A stretch of DNA of 58,715 nucleotides, taken from assembly GCA_002483745.1 (NCBI GenBank), contig DLIM01000006.1:18193-76907 (forward strand), read 5' to 3'. The stretch is from Bacillales bacterium UBA7642 (lineage in GTDB: Bacteria > Bacillota_I > Bacilli_A > RFN20 > CAG-288). Positions 22,603-38,301 of this stretch are shown piece after piece. Every line of letters begins with the position of its first letter. Positions within the stretch are counted from its first letter, which is position 1. Under the pieces are notes generated by a model. The model was not told where the DNA came from and ran no database searches. It saw only the letters and a list, made by a program, of their open reading frames with translations. The position numbers were made by a program, and so were the translations under genes.

Positions 22603-23757
22603 ATGTCTCAGATTGAAAATTATTTGTATACTTCCGACTATGGCCAAAGAATAATTGTTAGAAGAGTCTTTCTTAAATCCAGTGATGTCGTTTTTGAGAA
22701 TCTTTATCTTTTAGCTGAGCTTCTTAATATGGCTCCTTGCTACACTGATAAAAAATTATTAAGCGAATATGCCGATGGTAAAGCCACTTTTAAAGCTTAT
22801 TGCTATGGCGGAGGTTATGTTTTTGAAGGAAGGTTATGCCAGACTCAAAACAAGAACCTTTTCTTCTTTAACAACCCTTATAAGAAAGGCATTTCTATTT
22901 TCAATGATATCTTCGAGCTAGGCTTTAAGACTGATGAAAAAGGTTTCCTTGCCGCTAAAGAAAGGGCCTTAGCTAATTACCTCTTAGTAAAGAAGGATCC
23001 TTCAAAGAACCTTGAAGGAAGAATGGAAATCAATTATGCCATTCCGAATATTGATGAAAAGCTTTTCAATGAAGTCACCTATGATGATGAAAAGCTACTT
23101 TTGAAAGCTATTAAGAGCAGTACTGTCGGTGAATATCTTTTCTTAGGGGAGAAGAGCAAGAAAGATCCTTTGGCTTTGCTTCCTAAGTATCAGGATGATT
23201 TCTCTTCTTTGACCTCTTCTTATTTACCTTCGTCAAAATCTTTTTCATCCGCTGATTTTAGTTCTGAGGCTTTGACTTACTTATTCAAAATCAAGGAAAT
23301 AAAGACTAGCCATGATATTGAAGTCCTGAAAGTCAGCTCTGATATTCTCTTTAAGGCTATCAGCTTGAGCTTTATGAAGTCTTTGAGCACTAAGACTAGT
23401 TATAGTATGCATGTCGTCAATAAAGAGACAATGGCTCTTGAGATTGTTGCTGAAGGCAGCCGTCTATCTGAAAACCAGTCTTATTTTCTCAATGATTTAG
23501 AGAAAACTATCAATACTAATAATGCTGACTTGATCTCTTCTTCCTTGAATGATTATGCTCTTTCACAAGTTGAACTTACCATTCATAGCTCTAAGGCTAT
23601 TGAAAAAGCTTTGCTATTACAGGATTTAGGAATCTCTTTTGAGAGTTTCTTTAAGGAACCGGATGTTAAAGCTGAAGAAGTTAAAGAGAGCCTTGCTGAC
23701 TTTAAGGAAATAAATAAGCTTACTGCCACTATCCTAAGAGGAAAAACCAATGATTAA
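22603..23757 (+). CDS. M16 (pitrilysin)-like protein, YmfF-like, apparently non-catalytic
   Basis: The position directly after ftsK and before a second M16-like gene mirrors the Firmicutes ymfF/ymfH pair. No HxxEH motif is present. The assignment rests mostly on context and size. Confidence 0.45.
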   Translation: MSQIENYLYTSDYGQRIIVRRVFLKSSDVVFENLYLLAELLNMAPCYTDKKLLSEYADGKATFKAYCYGGGYVFEGRLCQTQNKNLFFFNNPYKKGISIFNDIFELGFKTDEKGFLAAKERALANYLLVKKDPSKNLEGRMEINYAIPNIDEKLFNEVTYDDEKLLLKAIKSSTVGEYLFLGEKSKKDPLALLPKYQDDFSSLTSSYLPSSKSFSSADFSSEALTYLFKIKEIKTSHDIEVLKVSSDILFKAISLSFMKSLSTKTSYSMHVVNKETMALEIVAEGSRLSENQSYFLNDLEKTINTNNADLISSSLNDYALSQVELTIHSSKAIEKALLLQDLGISFESFFKEPDVKAEEVKESLADFKEINKLTATILRGKTND

Positions 23758-24997
23758 AAATGATTTAGGACATCTTAACTGTCCCTTCTATGAGCAAAAG
23801 CTAGAGAATGGCTTAAATGTTATTTTTGTACCCAGAAAAAGCGAATTGAAGAGCGGTGTTATTTATATTGCTCAAGGCGGTTATCCTCACGATGAGGAAA
23901 TCAACTCTTCTAAGATTCCTTTTGGCTCCGCTTATTTCTTAGAGAAGATGATCATGTCTTATAAGACTAAGAATGAATTGAAAGCAATGAAGACTAACGG
24001 CACTAGCCATATTGATTTCTCCTATACTTGCTTCAATGTTGATACTCTTGGTGATGTCTTTTCAGCTATTCAATTAGTCTTAAATAAAATCTGCACTCTT
24101 GATTTTAATGAGGATGATGTGGAAAAATTCAAGCAGGACAATGCTTCCTTTTTCCAAAAGCAATCCGACGATCCTTTAATACAGACTAAGAAGGCCTGCC
24201 TTAATAATCTTTATTTCAATTCACCGATTAGGAATGGCTTCTTACCTACTAAGGAACAGTCAGTTTTCATCCATGCCTCTTCTTTAAAGAAACTTCTTAC
24301 TAAGTATTATGCTTCTAATAATATGACCATAATGATCTCTGGTGATTTCACTCCTGGTGAAGTCATTGCTAAGATCAAAGAGATGAAGGTCCCTGGGAAA
24401 ACCACCACCTATAGTAAAGCCGTTTCCTATCAGGAAGATTATTCTAAGGTCAATCATTACAATAAGACACTTCATCTTCCCTACAATTACAATGTCATGA
24501 ACTTAGGCTTTAAGTTTCCGGAAAGAAAGAAGCTTTATGACGACTATGGCATCATGATGTTTGAATCCTACGAGATTATCTCTAAGGTTCTCTTTACCGA
24601 AAACCTCAATTTCCTTAAAGGACTTCATGATATCAAATGCGATTTATTAGGGGTCTCCTTATCACAAGGCGGTGAAGATACCTATCTACTGCTTACGATG
24701 AAGTCTGATGACAAAAACACTTTAGGCAATTATCTGACTGATTATTGCAGCCGTTTAGACAAAAGATTCACGCATGCCGACTATCAAAGAGTAGTGAATA
24801 GCTATTACTATAAAGCTATCCGTGATTTGGCCTGCCCCAGAACGGCTTTAGATGATTTCACTGTTGCTTATGCCAACAATCTGCCTTTTACCGGCTTAGT
24901 TGGTTCTACTACTAAGATGCGCTTTGCTAATTTTAAAAACTTTGTGGCTTTAATATCTACTTATCCTAAAGCCACCTCTGTATTAGAAAAAATATGA
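23750..24997 (+). CDS. M16 (pitrilysin)-like protein, YmfH-like, with a degenerate zinc motif
   Basis: N-terminal pattern LENGLNVIFVPRK ... GSAYFLEKM matches the M16 N-domain, where GxAHFLEH is expected. It is 415 aa and overlaps the upstream gene by 8 nt. Confidence 0.6.
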   Translation: MIKNDLGHLNCPFYEQKLENGLNVIFVPRKSELKSGVIYIAQGGYPHDEEINSSKIPFGSAYFLEKMIMSYKTKNELKAMKTNGTSHIDFSYTCFNVDTLGDVFSAIQLVLNKICTLDFNEDDVEKFKQDNASFFQKQSDDPLIQTKKACLNNLYFNSPIRNGFLPTKEQSVFIHASSLKKLLTKYYASNNMTIMISGDFTPGEVIAKIKEMKVPGKTTTYSKAVSYQEDYSKVNHYNKTLHLPYNYNVMNLGFKFPERKKLYDDYGIMMFESYEIISKVLFTENLNFLKGLHDIKCDLLGVSLSQGGEDTYLLLTMKSDDKNTLGNYLTDYCSRLDKRFTHADYQRVVNSYYYKAIRDLACPRTALDDFTVAYANNLPFTGLVGSTTKMRFANFKNFVALISTYPKATSVLEKI

Positions 24998-31039: not shown

Positions 31040-31068
31040 TTGTAATAAGTTTCCCTCAATATTATAAT
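31040..31068 (+). promoter_or_regulatory. Sigma-70-type promoter of the jetABC-like operon
   Basis: TTGTAA (31040-31045), an exact 17-nt spacer, then TATAAT (31063-31068), about 40 nt upstream of the TTG start. Confidence 0.55.
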
Positions 31069-31109
31069 TTTCTTAGATTAAATAAAATTGTGAAAGGCAG
31101 GAAGCCATC

Positions 31110-32597
31110 TTGACCCGTTTATTTGAAAAAATCCCCGAGGACCTCTTTAGTCCTTTATCGAGGAAGTATAAATCCATCTATGCTTTCAGTTTAATTAGCC
31201 TTTATCATCTTTTGAGACTTTATAAAACCGATATTAAAAAGACCGATTATGTCAATCTCTTAAAGTCGAAAGGCGAAGAAATCCTTTCGCTTTTTAATGT
31301 AGAGACTGATCAGCTTGATGATACTGATGATTCCGAAAAGATTGCTTTAGAGACAAAGATTCCTCTTGATGATACTGAGGCTCAGCTTAACGATAAAGTA
31401 AACTATATTGTCAGAAAGCTAGCTAAATTCGGTTGGTACATTATTTCCAAAAACCCCAAAAACAATGTCGAATATATTTTTATACCAGCTTATTCTATTA
31501 AGCTTTTACAGATTCTGGATGAACTGACAAGCGATATTGGATCCTACTTGCCTTTAGTCCATCAGACTTATGCTGAGCTGAAGATGGAAGATGAGAAGGA
31601 AGACGACTATATGTATCGCTCTCTTCTTAATGCTAGACAGAATGCTGATTCTATTGAAATGTCAGTCACTCTTCTAAGACAGCAGATCTGTGTCTTTGGA
31701 AACAAGCTTACTTCGGTATTAGATCCTAATGTGGCCCTCAAGCAGCATTTTGATGAATACCGTATTGATGTTTCTGATAAATATTATCATCCGATGAAGA
31801 CTTTCGATTCACTAGGTCTTTATTCTCAGCCGACTATCGCTATTTTAAATAAATGGCTGAAGTCTGAAAGAATCCTGACTCTCTTAGTCAGGGAAGCTAA
31901 GACTGAGCCTGCCAATAGAGAAAAAGAAGAAGCTGAGGTTGTTAAGGAAATCATCAAGACTATTCAGGATATCATTGATATCTTTTCCCGTATCACTTCT
32001 GCTTTCAATGATATTGATAGTGCTAACGCTAACTACACCGAAGCTGTTCAAAGAAAGGTCAATTACCTTTCTTCCACTGATAAGACGGTTAAAGGCAAGG
32101 TTGATAGGATTATTTTAGCTTTAGCTAATGAAATCAAATCCAATCCAGCTTTAACCTATGAGGAATTGCCGATTCTGTCAAAGGCTACTGATAGCTGCGC
32201 TTTTTATAGGCAAGGCTATATTGATTCCTTCTCTTTGACTATGCCTTTTAGAAGAAGCCAAATTGAAGAAAGCGAGCCTCTTCCTCTTGAAGACGATATT
32301 GATTTTGGCGAGCAGGCTGAGTTAATGAACCAGGTCTTTGATAATGAACTCAACCGTTTCTCCGATTCTGCTATCTTGGAATTCATTGATAACAATATGA
32401 AAGACAAGGATGAAATCACCACTTATGATGTAAAGATTGATAACACTGACCAGTTGGTCTTAATGATTTTAGGTATTCTTAAGGCTATGCTTGGTGTTAT
32501 TCCTTATCAGGCTACTAAGCTATCTGACCGCATCGAGTATTGCGGTTATTATATGCCACTCTATAAGTTCACCAGAAAGAAAAAAACAGTGAGGTAA
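31110..32597 (+). CDS. jetA: JetA/MksB-like kleisin subunit (MukF analogue) of an SMC-type complex
   Basis: First gene of a tightly coupled triplet whose 2nd and 3rd genes are recognisable as MukE-like and MukB-like. Size (495 aa) and helical composition fit JetA. The TTG start lies 5 nt after AGGAAG. The assignment is largely by position. Confidence 0.55.
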   Translation: MTRLFEKIPEDLFSPLSRKYKSIYAFSLISLYHLLRLYKTDIKKTDYVNLLKSKGEEILSLFNVETDQLDDTDDSEKIALETKIPLDDTEAQLNDKVNYIVRKLAKFGWYIISKNPKNNVEYIFIPAYSIKLLQILDELTSDIGSYLPLVHQTYAELKMEDEKEDDYMYRSLLNARQNADSIEMSVTLLRQQICVFGNKLTSVLDPNVALKQHFDEYRIDVSDKYYHPMKTFDSLGLYSQPTIAILNKWLKSERILTLLVREAKTEPANREKEEAEVVKEIIKTIQDIIDIFSRITSAFNDIDSANANYTEAVQRKVNYLSSTDKTVKGKVDRIILALANEIKSNPALTYEELPILSKATDSCAFYRQGYIDSFSLTMPFRRSQIEESEPLPLEDDIDFGEQAELMNQVFDNELNRFSDSAILEFIDNNMKDKDEITTYDVKIDNTDQLVLMILGILKAMLGVIPYQATKLSDRIEYCGYYMPLYKFTRKKKTVR

Positions 32598-32603
32598 AGA
32601 TTT

Positions 32604-33476
32604 ATGTTTATTGATGATTACAACAAAATGAGTCGCAGTGACAGAGACTTGTTCTCAGAAGCTGTGAATGACTTACTCTATCAGTGCTTCATTGTCAGAA
32701 AGTCCTACGACCGTAAAGGCAAGATGTTCAGGGCTGACCCTGATTATCTTTTCATCGAAAGACATTATTCCACGTTTGAGGATTATCTTTCTTATATGGA
32801 TATGCAGTTATCCAAAAACGACGAAGATGGTGTTATTTTCTTAACTTCCGGTGCTGAAAGAAACCATTTAAGAATCGATTCTGTCACTACTTTGATGGTC
32901 TATGCTCTTAGGTCTTACTATGAAGGAGCTATCAGCAAAGCCCCTGAAGAGACCGAAGTCATGATGACTTCCGGTGCTCTTAATTCCTTGGTTCAGGAAA
33001 TGGGCTTATCCAATCTTTCCAAGAGACTTTCTTCTTCGACGATTGCTTCTTCCTTAAGGACCTTGGATTCCTTCAATGTTGTTAGCAGAGCTAATGGCAC
33101 TTATGGTGATCCTAGTTATAGTTTCTTTATTATGCCGACTATTAGGTATGTCATCTCCTCTGAGAAGATGAATACTCTTTATACTTTCCTGACTAAAGGT
33201 CCCGAGACCGAAGAGTCCCCTAACCTCTTTGATATGGAGCAGAAACCTAATGATGAGACTGAAGAAGAGTCTCATGCTGGCTTTGCTTCTGCCTTGAAGA
33301 AGGCTTCAATTGAGGAGAGTGATACTCCAAATAGGACGGTTGATATTCCGGTCAATCCTGATATTGATCCTGCCGCTAAAGCTACTGACAATACTGCTAC
33401 TAACGATATTCCTGTCAGCAATGAAGGCGCTGGAGATGATGAAGGAACTGATAATAAAGAGGGAGGCAATAACTAA
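32604..33476 (+). CDS. jetB: JetB/MksE-like (DUF4194, MukE analogue) with a ~80-aa acidic low-complexity C-terminal tail
   Basis: The core ~210 aa follows the DUF4194 pattern (LFSEAVNDLLYQCFIVRK ... FEDYLSYMDMQLSKNDEDGVIFLTS ... LTTLMVYALRSYY). The tail is rich in D/E/N/T/P. Confidence 0.6.
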   Translation: MFIDDYNKMSRSDRDLFSEAVNDLLYQCFIVRKSYDRKGKMFRADPDYLFIERHYSTFEDYLSYMDMQLSKNDEDGVIFLTSGAERNHLRIDSVTTLMVYALRSYYEGAISKAPEETEVMMTSGALNSLVQEMGLSNLSKRLSSSTIASSLRTLDSFNVVSRANGTYGDPSYSFFIMPTIRYVISSEKMNTLYTFLTKGPETEESPNLFDMEQKPNDETEEESHAGFASALKKASIEESDTPNRTVDIPVNPDIDPAAKATDNTATNDIPVSNEGAGDDEGTDNKEGGNN

Positions 33477-36400
33477 TGAAAAGCTTAACTAAGCTTCGCC
33501 TCATCAATTGGCATTTCTTTTCCAATACTACTACTGATATCAAGAATATTACTTTCCTTACTGGTCCTAATGGTACTGGTAAGTCGACTATTATTGATGC
33601 TCTTCAAATTCTTATCTTAGGTTCTACTAGACCGGATAACTTCAATAAGGCAGCCAACGAAAAGGGTCGTTCAGGGAGATCTCTTTTATCATATTTGAGA
33701 GGTCAGACCGGTATTAAGGATGATGGCTCGGTTATGAACTTAAGAGAAGGCAGTTTCTCCTCTTATTTGGCTATTGAGATCTTCGATGATGTTGAAAAGA
33801 AGACCTTTACTTTAGGTGTTGTCTTTGATGTCGATTCCACTGATGCTATCGATAAGCATTACTTTTATCTTGATTCTCCTTTCCCGGAGAATGATTTCAC
33901 TAATTCCGATACCGAAACAGCGAAGTCGAAAATCCGACCGATGCGTTACCGTGAGCTTTCCAGTTATGTGAGAGCTAACTACAAAGTCAACCATTTCCGT
34001 TTCTTTGATTCGGATATCGATTATCAGGCCTTCACGAAGGTTGCTTTCGGAAACTTACCTGATAAGTACTTCTCCTTGCTCAAAAAGGCTGTCTCCTTCT
34101 CCCCTATCAGCGATATTTCTTCCTTTATCACTGAATATATCTGCGATGCTGATATCAATGTTGATATCACTCCGATGCAGAAGAATATCGAACAGTACAA
34201 AATCCTGGAATTAGAGGCCAAAAGACTTAAATCCAAGCAGGATACTTTGACTCAGATCCATGGTACCTATACCTCTTATCGCTCTTACGACAAGAAGATG
34301 GATATGCTGACCTATATCAATGCCAGAGTCTACTATGAAGAGAACAAGAAGAAGCTTGATACTTTGAACGAAAAGCTCAAGAAGAACAACGACCGTCTCT
34401 TTGCTATCACTAATCAGCTGAATCTTTTTGATACCCAGATGTCTGATCTAAGAAGTGATTTATCTTCCTATCAGGCTAAGAAGCTTCAATCAAGCAATTA
34501 TTCTTTGACAGAAAAGCTTTCTATGAAGAAGGAAAACATCACTAAGCAGATTACTTCTATCCAGATGTCGATTTCTTCTGTTATGACAAAGCTTGTCAAT
34601 TACTGCTCTGACTATAAGAAAACCTGCTCAGAATTCGCTCTTTATTATGCTCAGTTCAATTCCGAAAGATTAGGAAGCAAGATTTCCAAGAGTTTCAATG
34701 ATTTAGTCGAATTGGCTAAGGATGTCTCTAATGAAGCCAATGAACTATTGACTGAGGTTGATAATGACACAGTTGACTTCGATAATGTCAAAGCCTTTAG
34801 AAACGATATGGAGACTTTAAGGAACGAGACTCTCTCTCTCCGCTCTTTGCTTAACAACGAATTCTATGAAGTCTCCGATAATCTACAGTCTTTGCAGTCG
34901 GATTTAAGCGCAGTCAATCAAGGCAAGAAGCCTTTCGAGAAGCTTGGACCTAGCTATCTTGCTATTAAGGAAAGCTTAGAGACTAATCTAAGAAGCCGTC
35001 ATTCTGATGCTTATGTCCATATCTACTGTGATCTAGTCGATGTCAATGATCAAGAATGGGCTATGGCTCTTGAAGCTGTTCTTTATGGGCAGAAGTTCAA
35101 TTTCTTTGTCAATCCTCAGTACTATGAAGAAGCCAATAGGCTCTTAAAGGAACTGACTGATAACTATCATTTCTATCGTGTCTCCCTAGTTGATACTGAA
35201 AGACTATTGAGAGCTGATATTGTTCCTAATGATGATTCTATTGCAAACCTTATTGCTACTGAAGATGAGGGTGCTAGAGCCTATACGGACTATATCTTAG
35301 GTAGAATCAAGAAGTGCTCAACTTTTGAGGAAGCTAGAGCCTCCGGTTCCGGCTTGCTTTCTGACTGCACTGGCTATCGAGGCTATGCTACTTGGTATCT
35401 TAATAAGAACAATGCTTCGGTCTATTTCTTAGGAACTAAGGTTTCTAATGACACTAAGGCTCTTTCTGCTAAAGACTATCAGGATATGAATAAGCGTTAT
35501 TCCTTATTGTCCGAAGCTTTGAATAAGCTTCAGAACTTACTGACTTTGCCAGTAATGTCTATCGAGGAATGCAACACCTATCAAAGCGATATTGATCGTA
35601 CTAAGGATATTTCCGAATTACAGAATAACCTTTCCAATGTCGATTCTGAGATGCATGATGCCACCTTTGGGGATATGGCTGAAGTCGATAAGAAGATTAC
35701 TGCCTTGAACACTGATATTGCCACTATCTCTAAGGAAAGAGAGGATCTTCTTACTGAAAGAGGTTCTATCCTTAATGAGACTAACCGTCTCAATGCTGAG
35801 GAAATTCCTTTGGCCACTAAGAATCTTGCTGACTTCAAGAAACAGTTGGAATCCTTTGATGCCGATGTTGCTAACAAGGAATATGATCCTTTCTACAACA
35901 AGCTTTTCGATGAACAGCATATGACTCTAGCTCAGATCAGAGTCGAAGCTAGCCGCGAATATATTCAGGCTCAGAATAAACAGCGTCAGGATAAGGAAAA
36001 CCTGCTTAAACTGAGAACGGATTACTGCACCACTTATTCTCTCAACTATAATGTCATGAACGATAAAGACAATACCGAATTCGATAGTGAACTTGACAAT
36101 ATCTCTAAAGTCCAGCTACCGGAATATGAAAGCAAAATTGTCTCCGCTCATGAGCAGTCCATCAGAGAATTCAAGGATGACTTCATCTATAAATTAAGAA
36201 CGGCTATTGAGACTGTCAATTCTCAGATTACGGAGCTTAACAATGCTCTTGTCGATAGTCGCTTTGGCCGTGATGCCTATCAGTTCAAGGTTTCACCCAA
36301 TAAGGACTATATTGAATACTACAATATGATTATGGATCCGCTTCTCCTTAAAGCCGGTGATGCTGAGAATCTTTTCATGGAGAAGTATAAGACCACCATG

Positions 36401-36928
36401 GATGATTTGTTCGGCCTGATTTCTTCCTCGACTTCCGCTACTGGCGAACAGCGAGAGCAGATCTTAAAGAATGTCGAGACCTTCACTTCCTATACTACCT
36501 ATATTGTCTTCGATCTATTGGTTACCCGTGGTACTGGTCCTGAGGCCCAGACTATCTCCTTAGGAAGATCGTTCAAGTCTCAGTCTGGTGGTGAGACCCA
36601 GACTCCGTTCTATATCGCTATTTTAGCCTCCTTTGCTTCTTTGACTAGAGCTAATAACCCGAAAGACAACAATACCTTAAGACTGGTTATCTTCGATGAA
36701 GCCTTCTCCAAAATGGATTCAGCCCGTATTATGAAGTCGACTGACTTATTAAGACAGTTCGGCTTGCAGGCTATCTTATCGACTCCTAGTGAAAAGCTGA
36801 GAGACTTAGTCTCTTATGTTGATTTGATCTTAGTCACTATCCATGATGAGAAGAAGAAGAGAAGCGGACTTGATGTCTATGAGGAAAAGCCTAAAGACGA
36901 AAAGCCTGCTAATGGAAGTGCTAGCTGA
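33476..36928 (+). CDS. jetC: JetC/MksF-like SMC-family ATPase (MukB analogue)
   Basis: N-terminus LRLINWHFF...FLTGPNGTGKSTIIDALQILILG...RSLLSYLRG (Walker A, AAA_29-type). About 800 aa of coiled coil with a central non-coil segment. C-terminal signature QSGGETQ and Walker B LVIFDEAFSKMD. The start overlaps the jetB stop (TAATG) and GGGAGG lies upstream. Confidence 0.8.
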   Translation: MKSLTKLRLINWHFFSNTTTDIKNITFLTGPNGTGKSTIIDALQILILGSTRPDNFNKAANEKGRSGRSLLSYLRGQTGIKDDGSVMNLREGSFSSYLAIEIFDDVEKKTFTLGVVFDVDSTDAIDKHYFYLDSPFPENDFTNSDTETAKSKIRPMRYRELSSYVRANYKVNHFRFFDSDIDYQAFTKVAFGNLPDKYFSLLKKAVSFSPISDISSFITEYICDADINVDITPMQKNIEQYKILELEAKRLKSKQDTLTQIHGTYTSYRSYDKKMDMLTYINARVYYEENKKKLDTLNEKLKKNNDRLFAITNQLNLFDTQMSDLRSDLSSYQAKKLQSSNYSLTEKLSMKKENITKQITSIQMSISSVMTKLVNYCSDYKKTCSEFALYYAQFNSERLGSKISKSFNDLVELAKDVSNEANELLTEVDNDTVDFDNVKAFRNDMETLRNETLSLRSLLNNEFYEVSDNLQSLQSDLSAVNQGKKPFEKLGPSYLAIKESLETNLRSRHSDAYVHIYCDLVDVNDQEWAMALEAVLYGQKFNFFVNPQYYEEANRLLKELTDNYHFYRVSLVDTERLLRADIVPNDDSIANLIATEDEGARAYTDYILGRIKKCSTFEEARASGSGLLSDCTGYRGYATWYLNKNNASVYFLGTKVSNDTKALSAKDYQDMNKRYSLLSEALNKLQNLLTLPVMSIEECNTYQSDIDRTKDISELQNNLSNVDSEMHDATFGDMAEVDKKITALNTDIATISKEREDLLTERGSILNETNRLNAEEIPLATKNLADFKKQLESFDADVANKEYDPFYNKLFDEQHMTLAQIRVEASREYIQAQNKQRQDKENLLKLRTDYCTTYSLNYNVMNDKDNTEFDSELDNISKVQLPEYESKIVSAHEQSIREFKDDFIYKLRTAIETVNSQITELNNALVDSRFGRDAYQFKVSPNKDYIEYYNMIMDPLLLKAGDAENLFMEKYKTTMDDLFGLISSSTSATGEQREQILKNVETFTSYTTYIVFDLLVTRGTGPEAQTISLGRSFKSQSGGETQTPFYIAILASFASLTRANNPKDNNTLRLVIFDEAFSKMDSARIMKSTDLLRQFGLQAILSTPSEKLRDLVSYVDLILVTIHDEKKKRSGLDVYEEKPKDEKPANGSAS

Positions 36929-36950
36929 TTTTCAGCAAAGAAAGCAAACT

Positions 36951-36977
36951 AAAAGGAGGCATTAAGCCTCCTTTTTT
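36951..36977. terminator. Bidirectional rho-independent terminator between jetC and the convergent GH30 gene
   Basis: 10-bp stem aaaaggaggc/gcctcctttt with a 5-nt loop. The A-run and T-run arms allow termination in both directions. It begins 22 nt after the jetC stop. Confidence 0.8.
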
Positions 36978-37005: not shown

Positions 37006-38301
37006 CTAAACTACTAAGGTTGCTAATTCGTTAGTCCTTAAGGAGAAATTGAAGACCCGGTCTTTAACGATGACATCAATTCTCTTTTCCGGCCCTTCGT
37101 TCAGCAGTTCTACGACAATACTGTTATCCGGATTTAAAAAGGCGGTGGAAAGAATGTTCTCTTTGCTTGTAGTCTCAATGTTGTAGGCATCTTTCTGGAT
37201 GAAGTGAGCAAAGTGATAGACTCCATAGAAAGAGCTGTTGACTCTTAGTTTTTTCCCTCTTTTCATGATTAAGGCTTCACAGTAGTTTCCAACATGGTTA
37301 GGACCGCCTTTTTCATCGAGAAGCAGGTTCCAATCAAAGAAAGCAGTAGCCCCGTTATTGCTGTCTAAAAGGTAGTTCTTGAAGTACCTAATGGCTCCAT
37401 CATAGTTGCCGATAGCTGAGGTGGGGTCTTCTCTATTGAGATTAAGGAGCTCTAGACAGCCCTCCGAGAAGATTAAGTCACGGTCAGGATAGGTGTCCTT
37501 TACTAGTTTTATCTGATCGTTTTGATAGCCTTCATACCAATGGTAGGCTAAACCCTTAAAGACTTTTTTGTCTTTGTCCAATGAGTAAAGCGTGTTTGCC
37601 CAATTCATCAGGTGATCACGATTGTGGTCATAGCCATAGATATCACACTCGGGAAGGTACTTCTTAACGATTGTTGCATACTGGTATTCCTCTTCAGGAG
37701 TGAAGAGACAGCTTTCCCAGGTCTGAGTGGCTTCCGGCTCATTTTGGACAGTGAGAGCGGAGATAGTCAATCCTTCCTTCTTCATGTTCTCAACATAGAG
37801 AGCAAGGTATTTAGCGGCCATATCGTAATATTCGGGAAGCAAAGTTCCGCCATGGCATTTATCCTGGTTGCTTTTGTATTTAGCTAAAGGCGACCAGCAA
37901 GAGGCTAGAAGAGTAAGATTGGTGACTTTATTAGCTTCCTTAATGAATGGAATGATCTCCATTCTGTCATGAACTAAAGTGAAATCCGAGAGATCATCTT
38001 CTCTGGCATAGTCATAGGGAGCAATAGAGAAATCACAGCTTCCGACTGTGGTCCTTCCTAAGTTATAGTGAAGACCTCTTCTAGAAAAGAGAATCTTCAT
38101 CACTAACAGTTGGTTCATTCGGTTAAGGGTGTAGTAGACATGAGCCGAACTTTCAGTAAAAGCACCTCCAAACCCCTTTATTTGCTGTCTTTTGACTGAT
38201 TGGTTGACATTTATAGTAGGGTAGGAAGCCTCTTTTTTGGAAAAAAGAATCTTTTTATGGAGCCGATAATCCTTACTGCTTCGATAAATATGAGCAATCA
38301 T
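37006..38301 (-). CDS. Glycoside hydrolase family 30 (glucosylceramidase-like), cytoplasmic
   Basis: IKGFGGAFTESSA N-terminal motif and VQNEPEA acid/base motif typical of GH30. There is no signal peptide. Confidence 0.75.
   Translation of the reverse strand: MIAHIYRSSKDYRLHKKILFSKKEASYPTINVNQSVKRQQIKGFGGAFTESSAHVYYTLNRMNQLLVMKILFSRRGLHYNLGRTTVGSCDFSIAPYDYAREDDLSDFTLVHDRMEIIPFIKEANKVTNLTLLASCWSPLAKYKSNQDKCHGGTLLPEYYDMAAKYLALYVENMKKEGLTISALTVQNEPEATQTWESCLFTPEEEYQYATIVKKYLPECDIYGYDHNRDHLMNWANTLYSLDKDKKVFKGLAYHWYEGYQNDQIKLVKDTYPDRDLIFSEGCLELLNLNREDPTSAIGNYDGAIRYFKNYLLDSNNGATAFFDWNLLLDEKGGPNHVGNYCEALIMKRGKKLRVNSSFYGVYHFAHFIQKDAYNIETTSKENILSTAFLNPDNSIVVELLNEGPEKRIDVIVKDRVFNFSLRTNELATLVV

What the first reader, a model, noticed from the sequence alone, without database searches (positions are those of the whole stretch)
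31040..36977. Stand-alone JetABC / MksBEF-like SMC operon with no JetD/MksG nuclease, in a genome with wall-less-Firmicute traits
Seen in sequence: three genes form one compact unit. A near-consensus promoter (TTGTAA-17-TATAAT) precedes a TTG start with an AGGAAG RBS. There is a 6-nt gap between genes 1 and 2 and a TAATG overlap between genes 2 and 3. A strong bidirectional hairpin starts 22 nt after the last stop. Gene 3 (1150 aa) has the N-terminal head LINWHFF...FLTGPNGTGKSTIIDAL, about 800 aa of coiled coil, then QSGGETQ and LVIFDEAFSKMD. That is the MukB/MksF/JetC architecture. Gene 2 has a DUF4194/MukE-like core. Gene 1 has kleisin-like size and position. Established knowledge: Wadjet plasmid restriction needs a fourth Toprim-nuclease subunit, JetD (MksG in Corynebacterium), encoded directly after jetC. 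Nuclease-less MksBEF acts as an auxiliary condensin in Pseudomonas. Here the jetD slot is empty, because the next gene is a convergent GH30 hydrolase. Inference: this may be a degraded Wadjet. It may instead be a DNA-silencing or compaction system that works without cleavage, one that recruits a nuclease in trans, or the main or auxiliary chromosome condensin of a reduced genome. No integrase, repeats or obvious compositional break flank it. Its neighbours are lipid-scavenging and sugar genes.
Basis: partly seen in the sequence, partly recalled or inferred. Interest (0 to 1): 0.8.

Follow-up and report, generated by a model that had tools for sequence, protein, structure and literature searches.

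The report
Nuclease-less JetABC SMC operon, lineage-fixed
This is an intact three-gene relative of the Wadjet anti-plasmid SMC machine that lacks its DNA-cutting subunit and has been inherited vertically at one chromosomal site across a whole lineage of uncultured gut Bacilli, which suggests a defence motor now used for a housekeeping DNA-organising job.

Summary
jetA (31110-32597), jetB (32604-33476) and jetC (33476-36928) form one compact operon with a promoter, an RBS, a TAATG overlap and a terminator hairpin. Profile searches place all three proteins in type I Wadjet (PADLOC JetA1 2.9e-83, JetB1 2.6e-64, JetC1 4.9e-289).

No JetD is present in the window. None lies within about 10 kb of jetABC in roughly 60 related loci. 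The same arrangement recurs in at least 23 independent assemblies.

The new result is evolutionary:
- In about 50 species-level relatives (RFN20 / 'Candidatus Enterosoma'-type Bacilli, JetC identity 43-86%), jetABC sits at the same site inside the glycogen gene cluster.
- It diverges in step with glgC, glgD and glgA.
- dN/dS is 0.01-0.17, the same as those housekeeping genes.
- All ATPase motifs are kept.
- In a simple NJ tree the JetD-less JetCs form one clade. Four-gene JetABCD relatives (28-30% identity) fall outside it and lie in variable, defence-island-like contexts.

It is therefore not a decaying Wadjet. The best reading is a domesticated, nuclease-free loop-extruding complex that plays an MksBEF-like role. 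I could not test whether the genome also has Smc-ScpAB, or a JetD gene elsewhere. JetB has gained an acidic tail with conserved short motifs.

The parts
31040..31068 (+). Sigma-70-type promoter-like site, TTGTAA-17-TATAAT, upstream of jetA
   Evidence: Read in the sequence. It is the best-scoring site of the scan at 10 of 12. The number of sites in the region is not above the shuffle expectation, so the function is inferred.
31099..31104 (+). Ribosome-binding site AGGAAG, 5 nt before the TTG start
   Evidence: Read in the sequence.
31110..32597 (+). jetA: kleisin subunit (495 aa, TTG start)
   Evidence: Pfam JetA PF18982 at 3.8e-61. PADLOC JetA1 PDLC00449 at 2.9e-83, full length. The N-terminal residues L4, P9, F13, L16, K19, Y24 and L28 are invariant, including in a JetD-bearing relative. 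dN/dS is 0.007-0.14.
32604..33476 (+). jetB: KITE (MukE-like) subunit (290 aa)
   Evidence: Pfam DUF4194/JetB PF13835 at 2.4e-16. PADLOC JetB1 PDLC00502 at 2.6e-64 over residues 1-205. dN/dS is 0.01-0.17.
33216..33473 (+). Region of jetB that encodes a lineage-specific acidic, disordered C-terminal tail (about aa 205-290). It carries the short motifs NLFD, DIPV (twice) and a terminal EGGNN.
   Evidence: The tail lies beyond the end of the JetB1 model. AF2 predicts it disordered, but the model is poor. The motifs are conserved across 46 orthologues far above shuffle expectation. JetD-bearing JetBs have 0-13-aa acidic ends and lack these motifs.
33476..36928 (+). jetC: MukB-like SMC ATPase (1150 aa)
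   Evidence: PADLOC JetC1 PDLC00519 at 4.9e-289, full length. Pfam AAA_29 and SbcC_Walker_B. PDB JetC of E. coli GF4-3 (9qxt/8as8) at 9e-15 and of P. aeruginosa PA14 (8dk1) at 5e-13. 92 invariant residues across 48 orthologues.
33563..33589 (+). JetC Walker A, GPNGTGKST (aa 30-38)
   Evidence: Translation. At least 95% conserved in 48 orthologues, except P31 (70-95%).
34973..35395 (+). JetC hinge region (about aa 500-640)
   Evidence: Weak Pfam SMC_hinge hit at aa 519-622, E 0.0023, below the gathering score. It forms a strongly conserved block in the orthologue alignment.
36581..36601 (+). JetC signature motif, QSGGETQ (aa 1036-1042)
   Evidence: Translation. SGGE.QTPFY is conserved in 48 orthologues.
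36677..36718 (+). JetC Walker B / D-loop, LRLVIFDEAFSKMD (aa 1068-1081; catalytic E1075)
   Evidence: Translation. FDEAFSKMD is at least 95% conserved in 48 orthologues.
36951..36975 (.). Bidirectional intrinsic-terminator-like hairpin between jetC and the convergent GH30 gene
   Evidence: Read in the sequence. The scan reports 10 pairs, 5 of them G-C.

Best explanation
The locus encodes a complete, functional JetA-JetB-JetC complex (kleisin, KITE, SMC ATPase) of the type I Wadjet sequence family. It lost its JetD Toprim nuclease before the radiation of a lineage of uncultured, probably wall-less gut Bacilli (RFN20 / Candidatus Enterosoma type). Since then it has been kept as a vertically inherited core gene set.

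Most likely mechanism (inferred from the solved type I JetABC complexes, not shown here): two JetC dimers are bridged by JetA and decorated by JetB dimers. This assembly loads on DNA and extrudes loops using ATP. With no nuclease attached, the output is DNA folding and compaction rather than cleavage. The complex would then act on the host chromosome as an MksBEF-like condensin, either auxiliary or main.

Shown here:
- family membership of all three subunits;
- intact ATPase motifs;
- purifying selection;
- conserved synteny and lineage-wide fixation;
- local absence of JetD.

Inferred:
- loop extrusion;
- action on the chromosome;
- a partner-recruiting role for the JetB tail.
For: 1. Identity. 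JetA1, JetB1 and JetC1 profiles match at 2.9e-83, 2.6e-64 and 4.9e-289, with Pfam support and PDB JetC hits. A four-gene JetABCD system (L046) hits the very same sub-family models.

2. No JetD.
- It is not in the window.
- The ORFs after jetC in relatives are comFA/comFC, GGDEF, GH3 or glgC.
- A JetD HMM built from 116 sequences, run over 2.34 Mb of six-frame translation (the window plus 137 loci), hits only the positive control L046.

3. Fixation and vertical descent.
- In about 35 GTDB species representatives, jetABC lies between plsC/AMP-binding/HGSNAT and glgC-glgD-glgA.
- In a scan anchored on GlgC rather than on Jet, all 9 loci with GlgC at 71% identity or more and full upstream DNA carry jetABC. 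Two truncated loci show the end of jetC at the contig edge.
- JetC identity tracks GlgC/GlgD/GlgA identity from 86% down to 43%.
- The JetD-less JetCs are monophyletic in a simple NJ tree.

4. Selection. dN/dS is 0.007-0.17 for jetA, jetB and jetC against 0.012-0.09 for glgC, glgD and glgA (one mis-paired glgD comparison set aside). Walker A, the signature motif and Walker B are conserved.

5. Contrast. JetD-bearing relatives sit in variable contexts, in two of three cases next to restriction or Abi genes.

6. Precedent. P. aeruginosa MksBEF has no nuclease, acts on the chromosome and is fixed in the whole genus (10.1101/2020.05.18.101659). [quoted passage not shown]
Against: - No direct evidence that the complex acts on the chromosome.
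- The whole genome could not be searched, so a JetD or another nuclease encoded elsewhere is not excluded.
- Chromosomal loop extrusion has not been documented for any bona fide JetABCD system (PMC10586767).
- By sequence the proteins are Wadjet type I, whose only demonstrated role is plasmid restriction.
- If Smc-ScpAB is present, as it is in nearly all Firmicutes (my own knowledge), the need for a second condensin is unexplained.
- The lineage-specific JetB tail could equally be the docking site for a replacement effector.
Confidence: 0.55

Rival explanations
1. It is still a plasmid or foreign-DNA defence system. JetABC senses small circular DNA by complete extrusion, as in Wadjet. The cutting or inactivating activity comes from a protein encoded elsewhere: an unlinked JetD, or a different effector recruited through the new JetB tail motifs.
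For: - The proteins belong to the same type I sub-family as four-gene JetABCD systems.
- JetB acquired conserved short linear motifs in an acidic tail exactly in the JetD-less clade.
- In one sub-clade jetC is directly followed by the DNA-uptake genes comFA and comFC.
- The genome-wide absence of JetD was not tested.
Against: - No JetD lies within about 10 kb in roughly 60 loci.
- In the four JetD-bearing systems seen here jetD directly follows or overlaps jetC.
- Lineage-wide fixation, strict synteny and housekeeping-like dN/dS are atypical for defence systems. The JetD-bearing relatives sit in variable islands.
- Named JetD homologues retrieved were from Clostridia, none from Bacilli or Enterosoma. 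This is a weak test because only the top 120 hits were listed.
Confidence: 0.2
2. It is a nuclease-independent restraint on extrachromosomal DNA. JetABC alone extrudes small circles completely and stalls on them, compacting or silencing them or disturbing their segregation. This would resemble Smc5/6 silencing of viral episomes.
For: - The motor is intact and the kleisin N-terminus, which mediates dimerisation in solved JetABC, is conserved.
- Cryo-EM of JetABC without JetD shows stalled motors that trap a U-shaped plasmid segment (10.1101/2023.11.03.565488).
- The review draws the analogy with Smc5/6 (PMC10586767).
Against: - In the systems tested, the nuclease subunit is described as the executing part of plasmid defence (PMC10123090, title and abstract).
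- No plasmids are known for these uncultured organisms.
- Long-term fixation argues for a constant rather than a sporadic selective pressure.
Confidence: 0.15
3. It is a degraded Wadjet remnant on its way to loss.
For: Only that the fourth gene, which defines Wadjet, is missing.
Against: - All three ORFs are intact in at least 23 assemblies and about 50 species.
- dN/dS is 0.007-0.17.
- 92 residues are invariant, including the catalytic motifs.
- The operon has been retained down to 43% JetC identity.
Confidence: 0.02

Closest known systems
Type I Wadjet / JetABCD (E. coli GF4-3, P. aeruginosa PA14; MksBEFG of Corynebacterium glutamicum)
   Same: The three core subunits, their gene order (jetA-jetB-jetC) and their tight coupling are the same. 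The best profile matches are JetA1, JetB1 and JetC1. The JetC head matches the solved JetC structures. The sub-family models are the same as for a four-gene relative.
   Different: - There is no JetD nuclease at the locus in any member of the clade.
- The operon is not in a defence island. It sits at a fixed place inside the glycogen gene cluster.
- It is inherited vertically.
- JetB carries an added acidic tail with motifs.
- JetA and JetB are too diverged to match the solved chains by sequence.
Pseudomonas aeruginosa MksBEF (nuclease-less, chromosome-acting, fixed in the genus)
   Same: It is also a three-gene kleisin/KITE/SMC operon without a nuclease, and it is fixed across a whole lineage. 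Its proposed role is an auxiliary condensin (10.1101/2020.05.18.101659). [quoted passage not shown]
   Different: - The window's JetB hits Pfam JetB (PF13835) and not the MksE family PF21980 at E up to 1. By sequence it is therefore of Wadjet type I, an independent nuclease-less lineage.
- The host is a Firmicute with a small genome.
- No functional data exist.
- Co-existence with Smc-ScpAB is shown for Pseudomonas and is unknown here.
MukBEF of gamma-proteobacteria
   Same: It has the same architecture (MukF kleisin, MukE KITE, MukB SMC). JetC gives a sub-threshold MukB N-terminal Pfam hit (21.2 bits against a cut-off of 23). MukBEF is a lineage-fixed chromosomal condensin thought to have a Wadjet-like ancestry (PMC10586767).
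   Different: MukBEF replaced Smc-ScpAB, and whether that happened here is untested. Sequence similarity to MukB is marginal. The co-evolved partners of MukBEF (MatP, the topoisomerase IV interaction) are not known here.
Mycobacterial MksB / EptABCD pair
   Same: The same superfamily occurs both as a chromosome-associated form (MksB) and as a plasmid-restricting four-gene form (EptABCD) (PMC11329512 abstract).
   Different: The phylum and the sequence sub-family differ. In mycobacteria both forms co-exist with SMC in one genome.

Membership tests
Wadjet (JetABCD) type I defence system | JetA kleisin (DUF5716 / PF18982) | tested here: met
   PF18982 at 3.8e-61, 207 bits against a cut-off of 26.2. 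PADLOC JetA1 at 2.9e-83.
Wadjet (JetABCD) type I defence system | JetB KITE (DUF4194 / PF13835) | tested here: met
   PF13835 at 2.4e-16, 60.3 bits against a cut-off of 32.7. PADLOC JetB1 at 2.6e-64.
Wadjet (JetABCD) type I defence system | JetC SMC-like ATPase with Walker A, signature motif and Walker B | tested here: met
   PADLOC JetC1 at 4.9e-289. AAA_29 and SbcC_Walker_B. Motifs conserved. PDB JetC hits.
Wadjet (JetABCD) type I defence system | JetD (CAP + Toprim nuclease, PF09983/PF11795) encoded in the operon after jetC | tested here: not met
   77 nt after jetC comes a convergent GH30 gene. The JetD HMM gives no hit at E up to 10 in the window or in any related locus. The positive control L046 hits at 4.8e-123. 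PADLOC finds JetD1 in L046 only.
Wadjet (JetABCD) type I defence system | JetD encoded anywhere in the genome | not testable with these tools
   Only the 58.7-kb window and flanks of about 10 kb are accessible.
Wadjet (JetABCD) type I defence system | Restricts small circular plasmids by cleavage | not testable with these tools
   Experimental.
Nuclease-less MksBEF-type condensins (functional class) | Three-gene kleisin-KITE-SMC operon without a nuclease gene | tested here: met
Nuclease-less MksBEF-type condensins (functional class) | Stable, lineage-wide chromosomal gene rather than a sporadically transferred island | tested here: met
   Same syntenic site in about 50 species. Identity tracks the neighbouring genes. 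Monophyly in an NJ tree. dN/dS 0.007-0.17. No tRNA, repeats or GC break.
Nuclease-less MksBEF-type condensins (functional class) | Acts on the chromosome (long-range contacts, segregation) | not testable with these tools
   Needs Hi-C, ChIP or genetics.
Pseudomonas-type MksBEF sequence families | KITE subunit matches Pfam MksE (PF21980) | tested here: not met
   A Pfam scan of JetB at E up to 1 lists only PF13835. PF21980 is on record only as a weak hit for a JetD-bearing JetB, in L138.
MukBEF | MukB N-terminal domain (PF04310) at family threshold | tested here: not met
   21.2 bits against a cut-off of 23, E 2.7e-4. This indicates related architecture, not membership.

The most novel reading that the evidence does not exclude
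In this RFN20 / Enterosoma-type lineage a type I Wadjet lost its nuclease and took over as the principal chromosome condensin, replacing Smc-ScpAB. That would be a second, independent takeover of the MukBEF kind, caught at a stage where the Wadjet ancestry is still obvious in the sequence. On this reading, the new JetB acidic tail (LFD, DIPV and terminal GGN or GF motifs) is the adaptor that couples the complex to host replication or repair proteins.
Probability: 0.15. Interest if true: 0.85.

Novelty: new variant of a known kind. Interest (0 to 1): 0.55.

Why it matters
Two published views disagree on whether chromosomal MksBEF/MukBEF condensins descend from Wadjet-type defence systems:
- The review PMC10586767 proposes descent by loss of JetD.
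- Lioy et al. (10.1101/2020.05.18.101659) considered a common ancestor unlikely, because they saw no sequence similarity.

In this lineage the JetABC proteins are still unmistakably type I Wadjet. Yet the nuclease is gone, the operon is fixed in a housekeeping context, and selection is as strong as on the core metabolic genes next to it. That makes the lineage a natural intermediate for testing several questions:
- What changes when a defence SMC motor is domesticated?
- Can JetABC act on chromosomes at all?
- Which features are tied to the switch, for example the JetB tail?

There is also a practical consequence. Defence-system annotators that require four genes will not report these operons. 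The operons are abundant in gut metagenomes: one JetB cluster is seen on 596 contigs, and a related JetC cluster has 1911 member sequences.

Tried and rejected
1. JetD candidates after jetC in relatives were tested and rejected. L035 and L041 carry comFA and comFC, L038 a GGDEF protein, L012 a GH3 enzyme, and L036 and L011 have no hit.

2. tblastn with one JetD against the window and the first 54 loci fetched gave nothing. Nor did a 116-sequence JetD HMM against the window and all 137 loci outside the control.

3. SMC genes among all fetched loci: none. I checked ORFs of at least 700 aa with an N-terminal Walker A and a C-terminal SGGE/Q motif. This says nothing about the rest of the genome.

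4. Smc-ScpAB status in the literature:
- Two RFN20 genomics papers and their supplements contain no smc, scpA, scpB or KO entries.
- Full-text searches for a 'sole condensin' MksBEF found no precedent.

5. Sequence and profile searches of JetA and JetB against the PDB gave no significant hit, even at E up to 10 for JetB.

6. AlphaFold2 of JetB:
- The second attempt used 20 close orthologues and gave a poor model (mean pLDDT 51, pTM 0.32). I did not run a fold search, because it would be meaningless.

7. The JetD homologue search listed named hits only from Clostridia. This is too shallow to exclude a JetD in RFN20 genomes.

8. Mobile-element explanation rejected: no tRNA, no flanking repeats, no GC break and no integrase in the window.

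9. One malformed paper search failed, and one script timed out and was rerun.


Full report
**1. The observation**

The sequence shows the following signals:
- TTGTAA-17-TATAAT at 31040-31068;
- AGGAAG at 31099-31104, five bases before the TTG;
- a 6-nt gap between jetA and jetB;
- a one-base TAATG overlap between jetB and jetC;
- a 10-bp-stem hairpin at 36951-36975, 22 nt after the jetC stop.

The consensus scan ranks that promoter first in the region and finds the hairpin. The number of promoter-like sites is no higher than in shuffled sequence, so promoter function is plausible but not shown. The next gene is a convergent GH30 hydrolase. There is no tRNA, no flanking repeat and no compositional break. 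The identical arrangement is present in at least 23 contigs from independent assemblies, including the NCBI MAG GCA_002397545.1. The empty jetD slot is therefore not an assembly artefact.

**2. What the proteins are**

Pfam places gene 1 in JetA (PF18982, 3.8e-61) and gene 2 in DUF4194/JetB (PF13835, 2.4e-16). Gene 3 has AAA_29 and SbcC_Walker_B domains, with sub-threshold MukB, SMC_N and SMC_hinge hits.

PADLOC assigns all three, over their full length, to the type I Wadjet models:
- JetA1 at 2.9e-83;
- JetB1 at 2.6e-64;
- JetC1 at 4.9e-289.

The JetC head matches the solved JetC chains of E. coli GF4-3 and P. aeruginosa PA14. JetA and JetB are too diverged to match solved chains by sequence or by profile. 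NCBIfam has no model that claims any of the three proteins.

**3. JetD is absent**

Every called gene in the window has a precomputed Pfam annotation, and none is a JetD or an SMC. The neighbours are housekeeping genes: tRNA synthetases, tsaBDE, ftsK, galKT, glgB, plsC, glgCDA, rpmF, rlmN, prpC, prkC, rsgA, rpe, rpmB, adhE and a phosphoketolase.

- As a positive control, a distant relative from an Oscillospiraceae MAG (L046, JetC about 30% identical) does have a JetD1 gene overlapping the end of jetC (PADLOC 1.7e-86). Its JetA, JetB and JetC hit the very same sub-family models as the window proteins.
- I built an HMM from 116 JetD sequences and ran it over the six-frame translation of the window and all 137 fetched loci, 2.34 Mb in total. 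It hits only L046, and nothing else at E up to 10.

**4. The evolutionary pattern**

A scan of one genome per GTDB species with JetC returned 44 loci. In the roughly 35 that belong to the same lineage, jetABC lies at the same place: after glgB, plsC and the divergently oriented AMP-binding and HGSNAT-type genes, and directly before glgC-glgD-glgA-rpmF. These records are named Bacilli bacterium, Candidatus Enterosoma or uncultured Mollicutes. A few bins carry other taxon names. JetC identity to the window ranges from 43% to 86%. No fourth gene is present.

Where an ORF does follow jetC, it is something other than JetD:
- comFA-comFC in L035, L041 and L135;
- a GGDEF protein in L038;
- a GH3 enzyme in L012;
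- an unannotated ORF followed by glgC in L137.

To avoid the bias of searching with Jet itself, I also scanned metagenome contigs with the neighbouring GlgC:
- All nine loci with GlgC at 71% identity or more and full upstream DNA carry jetABC directly upstream.
- Two truncated loci show the end of jetC at the contig edge.
- One further locus, L061, is explained by an insertion also seen in L025.
- Loci from other lineages (GlgC 59% or less) lack jetABC, apart from L081, which belongs to the deeper Jet-bearing sub-clade.

Three further results fit vertical descent and purifying selection:
- Across loci, JetC identity falls in step with GlgC, GlgD and GlgA. JetC is more conserved than the upstream lipid genes.
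- Pairwise dN/dS is 0.007-0.14 for jetA, 0.01-0.17 for jetB and 0.011-0.096 for jetC. For glgC, glgD and glgA it is 0.012-0.088, setting aside one mis-paired glgD comparison.
- Across 48 distinct JetC orthologues, 92 residues are invariant, and Walker A, the SGGE signature and the FDEAFSKMD Walker B/D-loop are conserved.

In a neighbour-joining tree of 51 JetC sequences, the JetD-less proteins form one clade on a long stem. An Acholeplasmatales MAG (L050, also without a JetD hit) is its sister. Four JetD-bearing systems from Clostridia-type contigs fall outside. The tree is a simple distance tree without support values. Those four-gene systems are 28-30% identical to the window JetC. Their contexts are not conserved, and two of the three are defence-island-like (an NgoFVII-type restriction/helicase gene, AbiEii).

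**5. Interpretation**

'Degraded Wadjet' is excluded by the selection and conservation data.

The best-supported reading is that this lineage inherited a type I Wadjet whose nuclease was lost once, early. The remaining JetABC motor has been kept ever since as a core chromosomal gene. Lineage-wide fixation, strict synteny and housekeeping-like constraint match the pattern described for the nuclease-less MksBEF of Pseudomonas. That complex is present in every species of the genus and extends long-range chromosome contacts (10.1101/2020.05.18.101659). The JetD-bearing relatives fetched here show the contrasting pattern: none shares a genomic context with another.

By homology with the solved JetABC complexes, the mechanism would be ATP-driven loop extrusion by a kleisin-bridged dimer of SMC motors. 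The JetA N-terminus is conserved, including in JetD-bearing relatives. Without a nuclease, the outcome would be DNA folding rather than cleavage. These mechanistic steps are inferred, not shown.

Two rivals stay open. The first is a nuclease or other effector supplied in trans. The second is nuclease-free restraint of small circular DNA: cryo-EM shows JetABC alone stalled on plasmid DNA, trapping a U-shaped segment (10.1101/2023.11.03.565488). I give the condensin-like reading 0.55, the trans-effector reading 0.20, the nuclease-free silencing reading 0.15 and decay 0.02.

**6. What I could not do**

I could not test whether these genomes encode Smc-ScpAB, or a JetD elsewhere. Contig look-ups are restricted to window proteins and to search hits, all of which map to this one locus. 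Two RFN20 genomics papers and their supplements do not list smc, scpA or scpB. This is the decisive missing computation.

**7. A lineage-specific feature**

The window JetB has an acidic tail of about 85 aa beyond the end of the JetB1 model. In 46 JetD-less orthologues the tail varies from 14 to 92 aa and is always net acidic. It keeps short motifs at frequencies far above those in shuffled tails:
- [LIM]F[DSNGQ] in 32 of 46 (shuffle mean 2.0);
- D[IV]P[VFA] in 17 of 46 (shuffle mean 0.13);
- a terminal GGN-type end in 25 of 46 (shuffle mean 0.36);
- in the deeper sub-clade, a terminal GF.

Relatedness of the sequences inflates such counts. JetD-bearing JetBs end in 0-13 acidic residues and lack these motifs. 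From memory, and not tested, the motifs resemble the acidic SSB C-terminal tip and clamp-binding peptides. This suggests a partner-recruiting adaptor. An AF2 model from a shallow alignment was poor (pLDDT 51) and only agrees that residues 198-290 are disordered.

**8. Comparison with known systems, and novelty**

The operon works like, and is best filed with, the nuclease-less MksBEF-type complexes. It is not a member of Wadjet as defined, because JetD was tested and not found at the locus. It is not a member of the Pseudomonas MksE sequence family either, since there is no PF21980 hit. By sequence it is Wadjet type I.

Three-gene Mks operons have been known since 2011, so the kind is known. 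The new elements are:
- an unambiguous type I Wadjet core;
- without its nuclease;
- fixed and vertically inherited across a whole lineage of uncultured gut Bacilli;
- with a modified KITE subunit.

This bears directly on a disagreement in the literature over whether chromosomal Mks/Muk condensins descend from defence systems. I rate it a new variant of a known kind, with interest 0.55. If these genomes lack Smc-ScpAB (my estimate 0.15), it would be a second takeover of the MukBEF kind and considerably more interesting.

Noticed in passing
window 33216-33473 (JetB aa ~205-290); orthologues in L007-L045, L055-L070, L135-L137: JetB has a lineage-specific acidic, disordered C-terminal tail (14-92 aa). 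It carries conserved short motifs: PSLFD-like, DIPV (twice in the window) and a terminal EGGN[NED]. In the deeper sub-clade the tail ends in GF. JetD-bearing JetBs lack the motifs. From memory they resemble the SSB C-terminal tip and clamp-binding peptides.
   Followed up: partly
window 37006-38301 (-): The GH30 gene between jetC and glgC is absent from most relatives mapped. In L007, L008, L016, L020 and others jetC is followed by glgC after a 100-330-bp gap. jetABC is thus embedded in the glycogen cluster: glgB upstream and glgC-glgD-glgA downstream.
   Followed up: partly
L035 13508-15314; L135 8577-10332; L041 6032-7805 (-): In the deeper Jet-bearing sub-clade (Clostridium sp. CAG:568 type, JetC about 47% identical) jetC is followed by comFA (DEAD/ResIII helicase) and comFC (PRTase). 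These are the DNA-uptake genes of natural competence. The adjacency may be a coincidence.
   Followed up: no
L046 9178-10843: The JetD of the nearest four-gene relative is split over two reading frames (HMM hits in frames +0 and +2). It lacks a PF09983 annotation. This is either a frameshifted gene, possibly decaying, or an assembly error.
   Followed up: partly
L050 4066-9297 (Acholeplasmatales MAG UBA12489): A second Mollicutes-related lineage has jetA and jetC, with room between them for a ~195-aa jetB that was not annotated. No JetD hit is found in 7 kb downstream. It is sister to the RFN20 clade in the NJ tree, so the JetD loss may predate RFN20 or have happened twice. The 1.7 kb after jetC holds only doubtful ORFs.
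   Followed up: partly
window 22603-24997 (+): Two adjacent conserved ORFs (384 and 415 aa) lie between ftsK and acpS. They have no Pfam hit on record and are conserved at 23-40% identity in relatives.
   Followed up: no
L137 10594-11619; L038 15268-16308; L040 16729-17754: In the deeper sub-clade an ORF of about 341-346 aa sits directly upstream of glgC. The L137 copy has no Pfam hit on record. It travels with glgC rather than with jetC.
   Followed up: no
window 1-58715: Cumulative GC skew rises almost monotonically across the whole window. The window therefore lies on one replichore, and jetABC is co-oriented with replication.
   Followed up: no
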